DNA of 64,000 bases, from assembly GCA_002099625.1 (NCBI GenBank), contig GCA_002099625.1_4857.1; one strand, written 5' to 3'. The DNA is from Escherichia coli. GTDB taxonomy: Bacteria; Pseudomonadota; Gammaproteobacteria; Enterobacterales; Enterobacteriaceae. This document shows, one piece after another, positions 13,208 through 32,208 of this stretch. The stretch's first letter is position 1. Each line of letters begins with the position of its first letter. The notes below the pieces were generated by a model that saw only the letters and a list, made by a program, of their open reading frames with translations, did no database searches and was not told the DNA's origin. The position numbers and the translations under genes are program-made.

Positions 13208-13252
13208 AACAAAAAAAAATAAGCTACCACACATATGATCGTGTGGTAGCCT
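13208..13252 (-). terminator. intrinsic terminator
   Basis: Stem gctaccacac/gtgtggtagc, T-run on minus strand; after stop of 13265..13660. Confidence 0.7.
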
Positions 13253-13264
13253 ACTCGTACGCTG

Positions 13265-13660
13265 TTAGTGCAGTGTAGCACTGTGCACAACAGTTAACCC
13301 GCGACGTTTGATCTCATCCGCGATGGATTGCAACAGCTTATCGTAACCCACCTTTACAAATTCAGGTAAGCCACGGTCAACCATCTCCATCTCGGTGATT
13401 TCTTCACGGAAAACTTGACAACAGCCTTCTAAATAACGTTTAGCTTCTGTCACGTCATCGACATACCGCGCATAACTCAGGGCGATCGCGTAACCTTCTG
13501 CAATAAACGCATACTTCATGAAGACTTCTGGGTCGAGTTCTTCAACTGCCACGTCTAGACGTGAAGCGGTCTGACGTACAGAGTTACGTAATGATTCAGA
13601 AAACAGTGTAGTCGTAACCATATCCTGATTAGGAACGGTTTTAGGCATAATCAATTTCAC
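13265..13660 (-). CDS. hypothetical protein
   Basis: 131-aa ORF. Confidence 0.5.
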   Translation of the reverse strand: MKLIMPKTVPNQDMVTTTLFSESLRNSVRQTASRLDVAVEELDPEVFMKYAFIAEGYAIALSYARYVDDVTEAKRYLEGCCQVFREEITEMEMVDRGLPEFVKVGYDKLLQSIADEIKRRGLTVVHSATLH

Positions 13661-13671
13661 GAGGACTCTCC

Positions 13672-14055
13672 TTACGATAACTCGCCCATGTAAATTACTT
13701 CATAACCGAACCACTCACCGATTTCAATAAGGTAAGAAACTAGCAAGTGGCGATGACAGAATTTCCCCGGTGGGCAATAGCACATTAGTACGACCTCGCC
13801 CCGGCGGAGAATCTCTATCAGCTTATCAGTGTCTTCATCAAACAACCGACTAAGTTTCTGCAGGTAGCGTTTGGTATACGCAGCTTCTGCGTCGGGGCCT
13901 TTGTCAGACTTCTTGTAGTCCATCAGAAAGTCCCAGTCGGGTGCCAAATATTTCAGCCCCGACTTAACCGTTATATCCAGCTTTGGCAAATTCCGTTTTT
14001 CAGCTATCCGCCACTTCGCCAGTTGGAGCGTCCACAGCTTTACTTGCTTTGGCAT
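13672..14055 (-). CDS. DUF488-like protein
   Basis: Motif VVLMCYCPPGKFCHRHLL (C..C....CHR) and LAPDW region resemble the DUF488/YeaO family; start taken at ATG 14055 (MPKQ); overlaps 3' end of upstream gene. Confidence 0.45.
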   Translation of the reverse strand: MPKQVKLWTLQLAKWRIAEKRNLPKLDITVKSGLKYLAPDWDFLMDYKKSDKGPDAEAAYTKRYLQKLSRLFDEDTDKLIEILRRGEVVLMCYCPPGKFCHRHLLVSYLIEIGEWFGYEVIYMGELS

Positions 14056-15007
14056 TATTCGCTCTCTCTTTTTCTTTCTCCTGAAGCGCTTTAAAATGCG
14101 GTGCATATTCGCACCACTCTTCTGCTGTAAATGACGTGATAAACAGTCTTTCGGTATCTTCAGTTACCGTAAAGGTTGTGTGATTTCTTTTCGGGTCCTT
14201 AAAGTTAGCAAAAGTCGGTACGTCCAAACCCATAGCAGAAATAGCACCACCAAGAGCAGAGCACCATACCCGTCTGTAAGCATCGTTGATTTTAATCTCC
14301 CATCCCACAGACGGTGTAATACCAAGACTACGATAATTCTGCGACTTTGCCGACGGATGGGCATAAACGATGAGCATGTTATTCTCACGGTCTATCGCGA
14401 ATTCGTAGTTGTTGTAGTTACTGACCTGCACCAATCTACGAATGTCTTCCGGCAACTCCTGCCACATTTCCAGTTTCTCTTTATCCCACGCAGGTGTTAG
14501 AAGCGGTGGAACGCGGCCGGCATGATCTTGGAAATACATCAGTTCGCTATAAAGGTTCTTTAAGCGAGCGTACTCGTCTAATGTCCAATCTCCCAGCTCT
14601 AGACTATTCTCCAACGCATCTAACTTATTCCAGCCAACAACTGCATAGGCGTGGTGCTGTTTGCGTGTAATGTCGCACATCAGTTTAGCGAGGCCGTTAA
14701 CAACATTGCCTTGCTGAACCAGAGGCGACCAGCCGTTAGCGTAGCCGGCGCTAACGACAGGCGGAAAGTTCTCTTCCCCGAGCACCGCCCATGTAACACG
14801 ATCGGTTTGTGCGTGGTATCTGTCCATTAACCGTTCAACAATGGCCACACTACAAAGAATTTCCATGAAGTTCGCGTTACCTCCATTCCACATGGAGAAA
14901 TATGCAGGACGGACATGTCGTGCTTCATTGGCCGGTGCTTTGCACAACAGCTGATACATTATCCAGGTGGAATCCAACCCTGCTGAAAACGAAACGAGCT
15001 TCGTCAT
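14000..15007 (-). CDS. PP-loop ATP pyrophosphatase superfamily protein
   Basis: N-terminal SFSAGLDST matches the PP-loop SGGxDS motif (QueC, PAPS reductase, asparagine synthase class); 335 aa. Confidence 0.5.
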   Translation of the reverse strand: MTKLVSFSAGLDSTWIMYQLLCKAPANEARHVRPAYFSMWNGGNANFMEILCSVAIVERLMDRYHAQTDRVTWAVLGEENFPPVVSAGYANGWSPLVQQGNVVNGLAKLMCDITRKQHHAYAVVGWNKLDALENSLELGDWTLDEYARLKNLYSELMYFQDHAGRVPPLLTPAWDKEKLEMWQELPEDIRRLVQVSNYNNYEFAIDRENNMLIVYAHPSAKSQNYRSLGITPSVGWEIKINDAYRRVWCSALGGAISAMGLDVPTFANFKDPKRNHTTFTVTEDTERLFITSFTAEEWCEYAPHFKALQEKEKERANNAKASKAVDAPTGEVADS

Positions 15008-15015
15008 CCTTTACC

Positions 15016-15348
15016 TCACTTTTGTTTCTGTTTTTCTTCACGCATCAACTTAGCGTTCAGGTCGACCATGTAACCCGGTTTTTCCATCACCTGCACTTCT
15101 TCCCAGTTGCTTCCCACCGCCATTTTGAGGGTTCCTTGACGTACCGCGATTTCTTTTGCAGTGTCACGGCAGACCTCTAACGCTTCGTCCAAATCGTTAA
15201 AAGTTGTCTTCTGTGGTCCGTTAAAGGTTTTAGCGCATTCCAGGAATACACGTTCGTAAACATCCTGGTCGAGTAAGAGTGGTTTGTCCGCAGCGTGGGC
15301 AACCATAGGCGCAACGAGTGCGCCTAACAGAACTAAAACTTTCTTCAT
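15016..15348 (-). CDS. secreted small protein with Sec signal peptide
   Basis: Start at ATG 15348 (MKKVLVLLGALVAPMVAHA-AD, AXA cleavage site); ATGA overlap with upstream stop. Confidence 0.5.
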   Translation of the reverse strand: MKKVLVLLGALVAPMVAHAADKPLLLDQDVYERVFLECAKTFNGPQKTTFNDLDEALEVCRDTAKEIAVRQGTLKMAVGSNWEEVQVMEKPGYMVDLNAKLMREEKQKQK

Positions 15349-15830
15349 TGTTTCACCGTACGTAGAAATTGATAACGTGGGGTTTCTTCTGCCACAACAT
15401 CGAAAGATGGGATGCAAACAATCTTCCCATATCCATCGAGTTCTATACGTGGAGAAATCGTGATGGTGCCTGCACGCATCACTTCAATCGCTAACGCTTT
15501 GAGTGGGCCGTATGGTGTGAATTCACCGCGGAGTTGAAAGTAACCATCGACAACGCCATAGCAGACATTCGATACATAACCGCAAACGCGTACGAGTTCA
15601 ATACAACGTATCCGATCAATGGCGGCCTTTACTTCCCCGAACGATTGACACGGTTTAATCACAGGCGCGTCGAATTCACAGAAAACGTGTCCGCGACGTA
15701 ATGCTAACGATATCGTTTCGTCGGGACGGGCCGAGTCTTTAAATTCGTCGCACGGTATAGACAGTAGCAGTCCACTCGCGGATGCCACGGTTTGTGCGGG
15801 TATTTCCTTAACCTCGGTTTGTAGTTTCAT
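15345..15830 (-). CDS. hypothetical protein
   Basis: 161-aa ORF. Confidence 0.5.
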   Translation of the reverse strand: MKLQTEVKEIPAQTVASASGLLLSIPCDEFKDSARPDETISLALRRGHVFCEFDAPVIKPCQSFGEVKAAIDRIRCIELVRVCGYVSNVCYGVVDGYFQLRGEFTPYGPLKALAIEVMRAGTITISPRIELDGYGKIVCIPSFDVVAEETPRYQFLRTVKQ

Positions 15831-15920
15831 TTATTCACTCGATAATTAATGGGGTTAAAATCAAATCCATGTAACCTAGGGTCAATAGCGCCACTATCTC
15901 AATCGGCGTTAAATTCTCCA

Positions 15921-16130
15921 TTAATTTTCCTCTTTGAGTATCATGGCAACCGCTTTACGACACGCATCCACCGCATCAGGATAAGTGTCACTGTTCGGGT
16001 CCACACGGTCAATGCACATCCTAAACGTGCTGGTTGCGGTCTCTCGACGTTCCGCAGTACGAGTGCTGGTACTGATTGCGATATAAATACAAAACAGCAC
16101 CGCCGCGGCGATAGGCCAACGTAAGTTCAT
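15921..16130 (-). CDS. small membrane protein
   Basis: 69-aa ORF with N-terminal hydrophobic segment WPIAAAVLFCIYIAIS; coupled to upstream stop. Confidence 0.45.
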   Translation of the reverse strand: MNLRWPIAAAVLFCIYIAISTSTRTAERRETATSTFRMCIDRVDPNSDTYPDAVDACRKAVAMILKEEN

Positions 16131-16828
16131 CAGTAATCCCCCGTTGCCCCTATCGCAGTCGCTACTTTACTGGCAACCTCGTCAACCGGAAGCACCACCT
16201 CGTCTTTCTTGCTCACAATCTCTGGCACTTCTTTGACATGTTCAACGGTCACGTCAAATTTCCGAGTATAACCAACAAGTAACTTTGCCATATCTGCACG
16301 ACTAACGAACTGTTGTTCTTCTGACAGATGCAACGACGTATCAAGTAGTCCGGAATGCATGAAGTTTTCAATGAGTTGGTCTTCTTCTGCTTTGAAGTCG
16401 TACCGCTCGTTCGGTGCAGCCACAAATGCATAACCGAAATACTTCCCCTCTTCCTGTTCAGGGCGTAACGATTTAACTAACTCCTCAGCGTGTTCACAGA
16501 AGTCCGCCAAAGTATAATCGTCAAGTGTGGCAACTGCGGTTTCTGTTACAATTTCACCGCTGTCGAGTTCGGTGAGGTGCATCACCCACAGGTGCCATGG
16601 GCGCGGTTGGTCGAACAATCCGCCGACTAACATGTCTGTGGCGATAGCACGAATACGTGGACTTGCTGTAAAGTGAAAACCGCGGCCCGCGTACGGGCCG
16701 AGACGGCGAATGGAGCTGCCAATAAAGGTGATGCGGTTCAGCGCGTTTTCAGCGATGGTGTGCGCTGTACGCTCTGTAGCAGCTTTTGGGTTATACTTTT
16801 TGTTACGGGGTTTCTTTTGCTTAGCCAT
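16130..16828 (-). CDS. hypothetical protein
   Basis: 232-aa ORF. Confidence 0.5.
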   Translation of the reverse strand: MAKQKKPRNKKYNPKAATERTAHTIAENALNRITFIGSSIRRLGPYAGRGFHFTASPRIRAIATDMLVGGLFDQPRPWHLWVMHLTELDSGEIVTETAVATLDDYTLADFCEHAEELVKSLRPEQEEGKYFGYAFVAAPNERYDFKAEEDQLIENFMHSGLLDTSLHLSEEQQFVSRADMAKLLVGYTRKFDVTVEHVKEVPEIVSKKDEVVLPVDEVASKVATAIGATGDY

Positions 16829-17298
16829 TACTTAAAAACCTTTTTACAGACAGTGTGGAATACTTTACGAATTTCGCGAAGAGTTTGTTCGGTATGCAGA
16901 TGCCGATACGTTATTTTCCATGCGTTATACGTGTTCTTCAGGGTGATCTCGCTGAGGTCGTAGACGAAATCCTCATCAGGGTACAAGAGTCTCGCCATGC
17001 ACAAATCCCACAGTGGCGGAATATCCGCTTTCATTAACTCAGCGACAAGCTCATGTGCTTTGTGTTCAAAGCCGATGCCAAGAACGAACACCACATGAAA
17101 TTCCCCCGGTGTGTTCTTTTTAGAATATGGTCCGTGTCCATGACACGACCACATTGTCGTGGCACCAGGATAACTACAAATGACCTCACACGCATCCCGT
17201 ACGCCTTTCTCAACCCAACCGTTTACGAGCGCCTTAGACGTTCGTAGTTTAAACCGACCCAGAACATCCAGGTCCACGCCACCGTATAAAACTGGCAT
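16828..17298 (-). CDS. hypothetical protein
   Basis: 156-aa ORF. Confidence 0.5.
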   Translation of the reverse strand: MPVLYGGVDLDVLGRFKLRTSKALVNGWVEKGVRDACEVICSYPGATTMWSCHGHGPYSKKNTPGEFHVVFVLGIGFEHKAHELVAELMKADIPPLWDLCMARLLYPDEDFVYDLSEITLKNTYNAWKITYRHLHTEQTLREIRKVFHTVCKKVFK

Positions 17299-17326
17299 CT
17301 TTAATTCTCCTTAAGGGTGTCTTCAT

Positions 17327-17779
17327 TTAATGGTTATGTTCTGTAAAAATTGCGAGTGCGAGCCAGTGCTCCATCACTCTTTCCATCACATCCGGGTCAG
17401 GTCGATAGTTGAGTCTAAACGTCCAGCTTGGATAACAGAGGTTCGCGTTGCCTTCTTGACGCAGCCAAGTAAAGTTTAACTGAAAACGTTTCCCGTATTC
17501 GTGCGGCTGCCATCCTTCTAATAAATGATTAATGTCTTTAAGACCCGCCTCGGTTGCCACAAATGTTAAGCTGTGGTGTCTACGTGTACGAAGCTTGTCT
17601 CCGTCTTTGCGAACTTCTCCCGTGAATGCCCAAACGGTTGCGATATTCGGCCATTCGCTAAATGCCCTAATGATTGCACGCGTTTTAACATCGACTGGTT
17701 TTTCAGCATCCAGCGCCCGGATTGTGCGCTGCTTGTACGCGGCCAATTCCGCATCATTGACGACTGAACATTGAAACAT
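17327..17779 (-). CDS. hypothetical protein
   Basis: 150-aa ORF. Confidence 0.5.
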   Translation of the reverse strand: MFQCSVVNDAELAAYKQRTIRALDAEKPVDVKTRAIIRAFSEWPNIATVWAFTGEVRKDGDKLRTRRHHSLTFVATEAGLKDINHLLEGWQPHEYGKRFQLNFTWLRQEGNANLCYPSWTFRLNYRPDPDVMERVMEHWLALAIFTEHNH

Positions 17780-17799
17780 GGTATACCCCCCAAAGGGTT

Positions 17800-17840
17800 A
17801 AAAATAAAAAGAACCCTACCTAACCGAAGTTAGGTAGGGG
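17800..17840 (-). terminator. intrinsic terminator
   Basis: Stem ccctacctaa/ttaggtaggg with ccgaag loop, T-run on minus strand. Confidence 0.7.
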
Positions 17841-31818: not shown

Positions 31819-32208
31819 TTAATAATCGTACAAAGGATACCGTGCGGAAATTTCTTTACCTACCCAAAAAGTTAACTGGTGGGTATTAACGCTGCGGTGT
31901 GTTCGTACTGACGGGACAATTTTCGCTTTAACTTTCGGCGAACATGTACCGGCATCTATTGGCTGGTACGTCTTGCGCTTTGTGTTAACGAGATAAAAGC
32001 CACCGCCCGGACACAGTTCAGAACGCCCGTAGTTGACCACGGCAAACTCACCCTTCTCCACTGTCACGACTGGTTCATCTTTGTCGCTAAATTTTACAGG
32101 TGCGTCGGTTTCCCACATCGGTTTATACTGCGGGAAGTCCTGAATGGTAAAGGCGTTTACTGGCGCAGTAACGCAGAGTATAAACACAGCTAATACAGCA
32201 CGCATCAT
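31819..32208 (-). CDS. secreted protein with Sec signal peptide
   Basis: N-terminus MMRAVLAVFILCVTAPVNA-F; 129 aa. Confidence 0.5.
   Translation of the reverse strand: MMRAVLAVFILCVTAPVNAFTIQDFPQYKPMWETDAPVKFSDKDEPVVTVEKGEFAVVNYGRSELCPGGGFYLVNTKRKTYQPIDAGTCSPKVKAKIVPSVRTHRSVNTHQLTFWVGKEISARYPLYDY

What the first reader, a model, noticed from the sequence alone, without database searches (positions are those of the whole stretch)
15016..15348. Phage-encoded secreted small protein
The ORF begins with a canonical Sec signal peptide (MKKVLVLLGALVAPMVAHA-AD) and is translationally coupled (ATGA) to the upstream gene. Periplasmic phage proteins are often superinfection-exclusion, lysis-regulating or receptor-modifying factors.
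Basis: seen in the sequence. Interest (0 to 1): 0.45.

Follow-up and report, generated by a model that had tools for sequence, protein, structure and literature searches.

The report
Exported small protein of jumbo phage
The gene is real and almost certainly makes a small protein that the phage-infected Salmonella cell exports to its periplasm. It belongs to a large family of exported phage proteins that nobody has characterised, and its function is still untested.

Summary
Window 15016-15348, minus strand, is gp118 of an SPN3US-like Salmonella jumbo phage (99.5% nucleotide identity). It encodes 110 aa with a textbook SPase-I signal peptide (MKK, a 13-residue hydrophobic core, AHA|AD). Its ATG overlaps the TGA stop of upstream gp117 (ATGA).

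gp118 has no Pfam or NCBIfam family. It belongs to PHROG 10627, annotated as unknown function. A profile search finds 494 clusters at 50% identity. About 78% of the sampled members carry a lipoprotein lipobox instead of a signal peptide. The rest have a signal peptide or an N-terminal membrane anchor, so the domain is always exported.

The conserved core is a helical hairpin with two invariant cysteines and a GPxxTxYND(W/L)DE motif. It resembles no solved structure.

The gene is under strong purifying selection, apart from a 21-codon beta-hairpin segment that has been swapped like a cassette between close relatives. gp118 was not detected in virions.

Three specific ideas were tested and rejected:
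- that gp117 and gp118 are the two halves of a split prohead protease (a published suggestion);
- homology to EexN entry-exclusion lipoproteins;
- a spanin role.

The most likely role is a stand-alone envelope effector, such as superinfection exclusion or envelope protection. That is inference only.

The parts
15016..15348 (-). gp118 coding sequence (110 codons plus TGA). Equivalent to SPN3US_0118 / YP_009153412.1, annotated 'hypothetical protein'.
   Evidence: Whole-gene dN/dS against relatives is 0.03-0.23.
15292..15348 (-). Signal peptide, aa 1-19: MKKVLVLLGALVAPMVAHA. Predicted SPase-I cleavage after AHA.
   Evidence: The -3/-1 residues are conserved in homologues.
15019..15291 (-). Predicted mature periplasmic protein: 91 aa, 10.5 kDa, pI about 5.
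15145..15267 (-). Conserved family core (aa 28-68): helix 1, then the GP loop, then helix 2. It holds the two invariant cysteines (C38 at 15235-15237, C60 at 15169-15171) and the NDLDE motif (15184-15198).
   Evidence: Alignments. AlphaFold models. dN/dS of 0.04-0.07 for codons 20-71, which contain this core.
15073..15135 (-). Hypervariable beta-hairpin segment (aa 72-92). It has cassette-like allelic replacement among near-identical phages.
   Evidence: dN is 0.42-0.61 with saturated dS, while the flanks are conserved. Nucleotide identity to the P0005 contig is 49% here against 91-98% in the flanks, and the P0005 allele is 84% identical to Erwinia phage pEa_SNUABM_29.
15019..15072 (-). Conserved C-terminal tail (aa 93-110): YMVDLNAKLMREEKQKQK. 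Basic, with a predicted helix.
   Evidence: No non-synonymous changes against the three closest relatives compared (dN 0.16 against Erwinia phage pEa_SNUABM_29). Models.
15345..15348 (-). ATGA overlap between the gp117 stop and the gp118 start. A GGTGA SD-like element lies at 15353-15357.
15345..15830 (-). Upstream gene gp117, a diverged and truncated paralogue of the prohead protease gp245. It is context only and not functionally tied to gp118 by any evidence here.
   Evidence: PMC5694885
14000..15007 (-). Downstream gene gp119 (335 aa, PHROG 8825, unknown function). Its start is 8 nt after the gp118 stop, and its SD overlaps that stop. It follows the gp118 homologue in Seoulvirus, Erskinevirus and one metagenomic contig.
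13217..17839 (-). Inferred transcription unit gp113 to gp121. It is bounded by two strong terminator-like hairpins at 17839-17814 and 13256-13217.
   Evidence: pattern scan only, so this is inference

Best explanation
SHOWN OR STRONGLY SUPPORTED. gp118 is a genuine, selected gene of an SPN3US-like jumbo phage, co-translated with gp117. Its product carries a cleavable Sec/SPase-I signal peptide. It should therefore end up as a soluble periplasmic protein of about 10.5 kDa in the infected Salmonella cell. It is not a virion component.

It belongs to a large, uncharacterised phage family (PHROG 10627). The conserved module is an acidic helical hairpin, presumably stapled by a disulfide between two invariant cysteines. 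In most other phages this module is tethered to a membrane as a lipoprotein.

INFERRED. The family occurs as a single gene in unrelated, fast-changing accessory contexts. These include jumbo phages, phages of about 95 kb, and the recombinase-to-integrase region of prophages. The family shares no conserved neighbour across those contexts. It therefore most likely acts alone on a component of the Gram-negative envelope.

The conserved hairpin would be the scaffold. The variable C-terminal part would supply specificity; in gp118 that part is a beta-hairpin exchanged as a cassette between close relatives. The most likely outcome is protection or exclusion at the envelope of an already infected cell, either by blocking entry of a second phage or by neutralising an envelope-acting enzyme.
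For: Identity and coordinates.

Signal peptide. Variant c-regions keep the -3/-1 rule.

Family size: 494 clusters at E<=1e-3 and 146 at E<=1e-10. PHROG 10627 match at E=9e-32.

Export signals across the family: 155 of 198 sequences have a lipobox. The others have a signal peptide or a TM anchor, apart from four with no hydrophobic N-terminus (apparently 5'-truncated ORFs) and one with a mis-annotated, truncated start. Two sources independently name relatives 'lipoprotein'.

Cysteines: two are invariant. 89% of lipoprotein members have exactly 2 or 4 Cys.

Selection: core dN/dS is 0.04-0.07. The hypervariable hairpin shows cassette exchange.

Not in virions: the GeLC-MS table of 83 virion proteins lists gp109, gp123 and gp124 but none of gp110-122 (Table S4 of PMC5105663).

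Contexts. Prophage copies lie between an exonuclease or Erf recombinase gene and the integrase gene. No neighbour family recurred across the 39 viral contigs in which the family ORF could be located (of 60 fetched); neighbours are mostly ORFs of about 90-130 aa.
Against: No experiment shows export, cleavage or any phenotype, and SignalP could not be run.

The AlphaFold models are only moderately confident (pLDDT 75.6 and 77.7; about 55 in the hairpin loop and tail). The disulfide is inferred, not seen.

No similarity, in sequence or fold, links the family to any characterised exclusion, lysis or inhibitor protein. The functional part of the statement therefore rests on analogy and context alone.

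The tight gp117-gp118-gp119-DUF488 synteny in Seoulvirus and Erskinevirus could mean a joint function that I cannot see. The hypervariable segment could also simply be unconstrained.
Confidence: 0.45

Rival explanations
1. Periplasmic inhibitor or modulator of a host envelope enzyme or machine, for example a peptidoglycan hydrolase, a periplasmic protease or a transport complex. On this reading gp118 keeps the envelope intact through the long jumbo-phage cycle. It would be host takeover rather than exclusion of other phages.
For: It rests on the same export and family evidence as the main explanation. The wide spread across phages and prophages of Salmonella, Erwinia, Pseudomonas, Xanthomonas, Mesorhizobium and Sphingopyxis hosts suggests a conserved envelope target. 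The core is acidic and highly conserved.
Against: There is no similarity to known inhibitor families such as Ivy, PliC/MliC or PliG, or to any other solved structure. A cassette-like hypervariable hairpin fits a variable partner better than a conserved host enzyme.
Confidence: 0.2
2. Lysis-associated factor: an antiholin-like periplasmic sensor, a spanin-like component or a lysis-timing regulator.
For: Small exported phage proteins often belong to lysis cassettes. One relative (P0073) has a sub-threshold hit to Rz1-like LysC (E=0.018, 15.4 bits against a cut-off of 27). One metagenomic copy lies about 1.6 kb from a holin and endolysin pair.
Confidence: 0.1
3. gp118 is the detached C-terminal part of a split prohead-protease paralogue (gp117 plus gp118 together equalling gp245). 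This was floated in Ali et al. 2017.
For: gp117 is a truncated paralogue of gp245, and gp117 plus gp118 add up to about the length of gp245 (PMC5694885). The two genes overlap by ATGA.
Against: BLASTP of gp118 against gp245 finds nothing (E 0.27). hhalign of the family profile against gp245 gives probability 0.05%. gp118 begins with a signal peptide. Its family occurs in many phages with no protease paralogue nearby. In Erskinevirus and pEa_SNUABM_29 a separate small membrane-protein gene sits between the two genes. gp117 and gp118 are not in the virion proteome.
Confidence: 0.02
4. A remote homologue of conjugative entry-exclusion lipoproteins (EexN/TrbK family).
For: Sub-threshold NCBIfam hits of several lipoprotein-type relatives to Eex_IncN (best E=7.5e-5, 22.6 bits against a cut-off of 33) and to TrbK. 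Both families are small, with two cysteines flanking a loop.
Against: The hits cover the lipoprotein signal plus a few residues. With signal sequences removed, hhalign of the family against mature R46 EexN gives probability 0.8%. The Cys-Cys spacing differs (12 against 21-22). gp118 itself has no hit.
Confidence: 0.03

Closest known systems
T4 Spackle (Sp, gp61.3) and similar soluble periplasmic superinfection-exclusion proteins
   Same: A small protein of about 10 kDa made by a virulent myovirus, with an SPase-I signal peptide and predicted to be soluble in the periplasm. This comparison to Sp rests on my own knowledge.
   Different: There is no detectable sequence or fold similarity to any PDB entry. 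The function of gp118 is untested. The gp118 family is mostly lipoproteins.
Phage exclusion lipoproteins Cor (phi80/N15) and Llp (T5)
   Same: Small exported phage accessory proteins encoded as single genes. Most relatives of gp118 are lipoproteins.
   Different: gp118 has no lipobox. Only signal-region hits to Cor models were seen, and they are non-significant (E 0.094 in NCBIfam; E 0.0069 in PHROG with no matched stretch). No receptor link is known.
EexN/TrbK plasmid entry-exclusion lipoproteins
   Same: A short exported protein with two cysteines around a loop between helices.
   Different: The mature domains are not homologous (hhalign probability 0.8%). There is no type IV secretion context.
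PHROG 10627 (uncharacterised phage protein family)
   Same: gp118 matches this family at E=9e-32, and all tested relatives match it too.
   Different: The PHROG entry has no function or description. The export signals, the cysteine pair and the hypervariable hairpin are described here.
C-terminal region of prohead protease gp245 (MEROPS S80)
   Same: Gene position after a protease-like gene, and the summed length (PMC5694885).
   Different: There is no similarity. gp118 is exported and was not found in virions.

Membership tests
Sec/SPase-I secreted proteins | Positively charged n-region | tested here: met
   K2 and K3, with no acidic residue in the first 6 aa
Sec/SPase-I secreted proteins | Uncharged hydrophobic h-region of 7-15 residues | tested here: met
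   VLVLLGALVAPMV, 13 residues
Sec/SPase-I secreted proteins | Small residues at -3 and -1, no Pro at +1, and no lipobox | tested here: met
   A-H-A|A in gp118. Variants VHA, VRA, VQA and AHG keep the rule.
Sec/SPase-I secreted proteins | Actual cleavage and periplasmic location | not testable with these tools
   This needs PhoA or BlaM fusions, cell fractionation, or an N-terminal peptide in mass spectrometry. The infected-cell proteome paper (PMC6384053) is not held.
PHROG 10627 | Significant match to the family HMM over most of its length | tested here: met
   E=9.2e-32, residues 1-83 against profile positions 1-85 of 87
o-spanin / Rz1 / LysC | Lipoprotein signal (lipobox Cys) | tested here: not met
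   The gp118 signal peptide contains no Cys.
o-spanin / Rz1 / LysC | Gene embedded in, or adjacent to, an i-spanin, holin or endolysin gene | tested here: not met
   The neighbours are gp117 (protease paralogue) and gp119. No neighbour family recurred in 39 contigs.
EexN/TrbK entry-exclusion lipoproteins | Homology of the mature domain | tested here: not met
   hhalign probability 0.8%. gp118 has no NCBIfam hit.
Prohead protease S80, C-terminal region (split-gene idea) | Sequence or profile similarity to gp245 | tested here: not met
   BLASTP E 0.27, with the match in the N-terminal part of gp245. hhalign probability 0.05%.
Prohead protease S80, C-terminal region (split-gene idea) | Presence in proheads or virions | tested here: not met
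   Not among the 83 proteins found by virion GeLC-MS (Table S4 of PMC5105663).
Known solved periplasmic phage or host effectors (Sp, RI, Llp, Ivy, PliC/MliC) | Fold or sequence similarity to a solved structure | tested here: not met
Superinfection-exclusion proteins (functional class) | Expression blocks adsorption, DNA entry or plating of a second phage | not testable with these tools
   This needs infection assays.

The most novel reading that the evidence does not exclude
gp118 may represent a previously unrecognised, very widespread family of phage envelope effectors. The family would consist of a disulfide-stapled helical-hairpin scaffold, soluble or lipid-anchored, carrying a swappable specificity segment. 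It would define a new mechanism of superinfection exclusion or envelope defence, used by jumbo phages and by many smaller phages and prophages of Proteobacteria.
Probability: 0.25. Interest if true: 0.6.

Novelty: new variant of a known kind. Interest (0 to 1): 0.4.

Why it matters
Jumbo phages of the SPN3US and phiKZ type are studied mainly for their cytoplasmic biology: the phage nucleus, their RNA polymerases and their capsids. Very little is known about what they do to the host envelope.

gp118 is a clean, testable candidate for an envelope-acting factor. It opens a family of roughly 500 sequence clusters that is currently blank in every database consulted. If the family proves to mediate exclusion or envelope protection, it would matter for phage-cocktail design, because SPN3US-like phages are used against Salmonella. 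It would also add a new fold to the list of phage periplasmic effectors.

The work also corrects the only published idea about this gene, that it is the missing half of a protease paralogue.

Tried and rejected
1. Split-protease hypothesis. gp118 and the family profile were compared with gp245. There is no similarity.

2. EexN/TrbK homology. This was suggested by sub-threshold NCBIfam hits. It disappears when signal sequences are removed.

3. gp116, a neighbouring 69-aa protein with a TM segment and two Cys, as a paralogue of gp118. BLASTP gives E 2.6.

5. Database scans.
- Pfam, NCBIfam and PADLOC scans of gp118 and its relatives gave no family above threshold.
- PHROG, NCBIfam and PDB scans of the neighbouring genes all returned 'unknown'.

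6. Search for a conserved partner gene around 60 viral-contig homologues. None was found.

7. Lipoprotein +2 sorting residue. The distribution is mixed (D 14%, E 18%, the rest other residues), so it does not say inner or outer membrane.

8. Literature. Within the searchable library (72 papers mention SPN3US), gp118 is mentioned only once in SPN3US work. The infected-cell proteome paper (PMC6384053) is not held. Two broad literature searches were uninformative.

Full report
WHAT AND WHERE

The window is an SPN3US-like Salmonella jumbo phage (genus Seoulvirus). Window 14000-16200 matches SPN3US at 99.5% identity in reverse orientation. The finding corresponds to SPN3US_0118 / YP_009153412.1, annotated 'hypothetical protein'.

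The ORF is on the minus strand, with its ATG at 15348 and its TGA stop ending at 15016, and encodes 110 aa. The upstream gene gp117 (15345-15830, minus strand) ends with TGA at 15347-15345, so the start and stop share ATGA. A GGTGA element lies 4 nt before the ATG. Downstream gp119 starts 8 nt after the gp118 stop, and its Shine-Dalgarno sequence overlaps that stop.

Terminator-like hairpins on the minus strand at 17839-17814 and 13256-13217 bracket gp113 to gp121. This suggests one transcription unit, but it rests on a pattern scan only.

THE SIGNAL PEPTIDE IS REAL AS FAR AS SEQUENCE CAN SHOW

MKKVLVLLGALVAPMVAHA|AD has a basic n-region, a 13-residue uncharged hydrophobic core and A-x-A at -3/-1. 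It has no lipobox and no later hydrophobic stretch. My crude rule filter passed only 3 of 147 ATG-ORFs of at least 60 aa in the window.

Close variants change the -2 and -3 residues (VHA, VRA, VQA) but keep the rule. Erskinevirus homologues have different but equivalent signal peptides, ending AHA or AHG. The annotated start of phiEaH2 gp041 truncates its signal peptide; the true start lies upstream.

A LARGE, UNDESCRIBED FAMILY OF EXPORTED PHAGE PROTEINS

gp118 has no Pfam or NCBIfam hit. It matches PHROG 10627, 'unknown function', at E=9e-32.

Word-indexed searches found close relatives in Seoulvirus and Erskinevirus. With a profile, they also found lipoprotein-type relatives in Pseudomonas putida phages KoPa-4 and Roomu-2 and in metagenomes. 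An exhaustive HMM search of 1.84 billion cluster representatives gave 494 clusters at E<=1e-3 and 146 at E<=1e-10.

I classified the N-termini of 198 family sequences (with reading):
- 155 have a lipobox.
- 14 have a hydrophobic N-terminus without a lipobox, which I read as a TM anchor.
- 25 were missed by my core pattern. On reading, these have SPase-I-type signal peptides or lipoboxes. One exception has a truncated start.
- Only 4 lack a hydrophobic N-terminus, and these look like 5'-truncated ORFs.

The domain is therefore always placed outside the cytoplasm. That is independent evolutionary support for export of gp118.

Invariant positions are F35, C38 and C60 in precursor numbering. The motif (L)PxGPxxTxYND(W/L)DE(V/A)(V/I)xxC is nearly invariant. 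Most lipoprotein members have 4 cysteines, and 89% have exactly 2 or 4. This is what disulfide-bonded periplasmic proteins look like.

Cultured phages that carry the family include:
- Xanthomonas jumbo phages X1 and BUDD;
- Pseudomonas phages Bitten, KoPa-4 and Roomu-2;
- the Cronobacter CR5 / Erwinia Phobos / Derbicus group.
All of these copies are annotated 'hypothetical'.

STRUCTURE

Two AlphaFold2 runs, with 21 and 55 aligned sequences, agree, with mean pLDDT 75.6 and 77.7. In mature numbering, both models give:
- helix 1: residues 9-20;
- the GP loop;
- helix 2: residues 31-49;
- a beta-hairpin: about residues 50-67;
- a C-terminal basic helix.

The two invariant cysteines sit on helices 1 and 2.

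Fold and sequence searches found no solved relative:
- Foldseek against PDB gave a best E of 0.52.
- BFVD returned only unannotated family members.
- A profile search of PDB sequences found nothing below E 1.7.

The mature protein is 10.5 kDa with pI about 5. It has an acidic core and a basic tail.

SELECTION AND A SWAPPED SEGMENT

Against four relatives, the core (codons 20-71) has dN/dS of 0-0.07. The tail (codons 93-110) has no non-synonymous change in the three closest. The ORF is therefore a working gene.

Codons 72-92, the predicted beta-hairpin, behave differently. dN is 0.42-0.61 and dS is saturated in comparisons with all three relatives that carry a different hairpin allele.

At nucleotide level, the window and the otherwise SPN3US-like contig carrying P0005 are 91-98% identical in the flanks but 49% identical in this 63-nt segment. 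The P0005 segment is 84% identical to that of the distant Erwinia phage pEa_SNUABM_29.

That pattern is recombinational replacement of a short cassette, with at least three alleles. It fits a specificity-determining surface, but it could also reflect lack of constraint.

CONTEXT

Within Seoulvirus and Erskinevirus, and in one metagenomic contig, the gene order is conserved: gp117-like, then a small membrane protein in some genomes, then the gp118 homologue, gp119-like and DUF488.

Outside that group the neighbours are unrelated. Of 60 IMG/VR loci, the family ORF could be located in 39. Among those, no neighbour family recurred beyond near-duplicate contigs, and the neighbours are mostly ORFs of about 90-130 aa.

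Only 5 of 185,579 reference bacterial genomes matched the strict motif pattern. The two examined, Mesorhizobium and Sphingopyxis, carry the gene inside prophages, between an exonuclease or Erf recombinase gene and the integrase gene. This is the behaviour of a self-sufficient accessory gene.

gp118 is not among the 83 proteins detected in SPN3US virions. gp109, gp123 and gp124 are listed, but none of gp110-122 (Table S4 of PMC5105663).

IDEAS TESTED AND REJECTED

- Split protease. Ali et al. 2017 noted that gp117, a truncated paralogue of the prohead protease gp245, plus gp118 add up to the length of gp245 (PMC5694885). gp118 and its family profile show no similarity to gp245. gp118 starts with a signal peptide. 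The family occurs without any protease paralogue in most phages.
- EexN/TrbK. Sub-threshold NCBIfam hits of relatives to these entry-exclusion lipoproteins come from the lipoprotein signal. Mature domain against mature R46 EexN gives hhalign probability 0.8%.
- Spanin. gp118 has no lipobox and no C-terminal TMD, and there are no lysis neighbours.
- PADLOC found nothing.

MOST LIKELY MECHANISM

What is well supported:
- The host Sec system exports gp118, and signal peptidase I cleaves it after Ala19.
- The 91-residue product folds in the periplasm.
- It is not a virion component.

What is inferred:
- It forms a Cys38-Cys60 disulfide.
- It acts alone on an envelope component.
- The conserved hairpin is the scaffold.
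- The variable C-terminal beta-hairpin is the recognition element.
- The outcome is exclusion of secondary infection or protection of the envelope.

I put export at about 0.85 and the exclusion or protection role at about 0.3-0.4. The nearest rival, at about 0.2, is modulation of a host envelope enzyme or machine. A lysis role is at about 0.1.

NOVELTY AND VERDICT

A phage-encoded periplasmic protein is not a surprise in itself. The class includes T4 Sp and Imm, T5 Llp and Cor.

What is new:
- this particular gene is exported, contrary to the only published suggestion about it;
- it belongs to a large family that is blank in Pfam, NCBIfam, PADLOC, PDB and PHROG annotations;
- the family switches between soluble, lipid-anchored and TM-anchored forms;
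- the SPN3US subgroup carries a cassette-like hypervariable hairpin.

Without a phenotype, this is a moderate-interest lead rather than a discovery. I score interest at 0.4 and rate it a new variant of a known kind.

Noticed in passing
window 31819-32208 (-): A second ORF in the window with an SPase-I-type signal peptide (MMRAVLAVFILCVTAPVNA|FT..., 129 aa). It matches PHROG 5248, unknown function.
   Followed up: partly
window 15921-16130 (-), gp116: A 69-aa protein with an N-terminal hydrophobic segment and two cysteines, just upstream of gp117 (PHROG 28359). It looked like a possible paralogue of gp118, but BLASTP shows no similarity.
   Followed up: partly
window 14000-15007 (-), gp119: The N-terminus MTKLVSFSAGLDST resembles the SGGxDS PP-loop ATP-pyrophosphatase motif, by my own recollection of that motif. 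No Pfam, NCBIfam or PDB match was found. The gene always lies between the gp118 homologue and a DUF488 gene in Seoulvirus and Erskinevirus.
   Followed up: partly
window 15345-15830 (-), gp117: RefSeq names this 'head maturation protease'. It is a truncated, diverged paralogue of the real prohead protease gp245 (Pfam S80 E=0.011, below threshold; BLASTP against gp245 E=0.004). It was not detected in virions (PMC5694885).
   Followed up: partly
window 16828-17298 and 17327-17779 (-), gp114 and gp113: Tandem paralogues. Both match PHROG 7413, unknown function.
   Followed up: no
GenBank records LR535903-LR535908, LR535911-LR535913 and LR535917 (Salmonella phages SPFM5-10, 12, 14, 15, 20): These records match the window in 32-35 short pieces. 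Six of their predicted 'gp118' proteins (from SPFM5/15, 7, 8, 9, 12, 20) were retrieved and are the true sequence with 20-aa (60-nt) blocks in reverse order. It looks as if the sequence lines were reversed without complementing. This is a database artefact, not biology.
   Followed up: partly
L004 (Erwinia phage phiEaH2, NC_019929.1) about 2417-2707: The annotated GTG start of gp041 cuts off the signal peptide. The full ORF begins MKRIVLVVIGVLVAPIFAHA.
   Followed up: yes
window 17814-17839 and 13217-13256 (- strand): Two strong terminator-like hairpins, with 11-bp and 17-bp stems followed by T-runs. They flank the block of non-virion genes gp113-gp121, which lies between virion-protein genes.
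   Followed up: no
L003 2257-2433 (Stratton gp137), L005 2269-2445 (Asesino gp133), L007 2242-2439, L025 2329-2514: Small proteins of 58-65 aa with apparent membrane-spanning segments are inserted between, or just before, the gp117-like and gp118-like genes in relatives. They are absent at that position in the window, and they belong to different PHROGs.
   Followed up: partly
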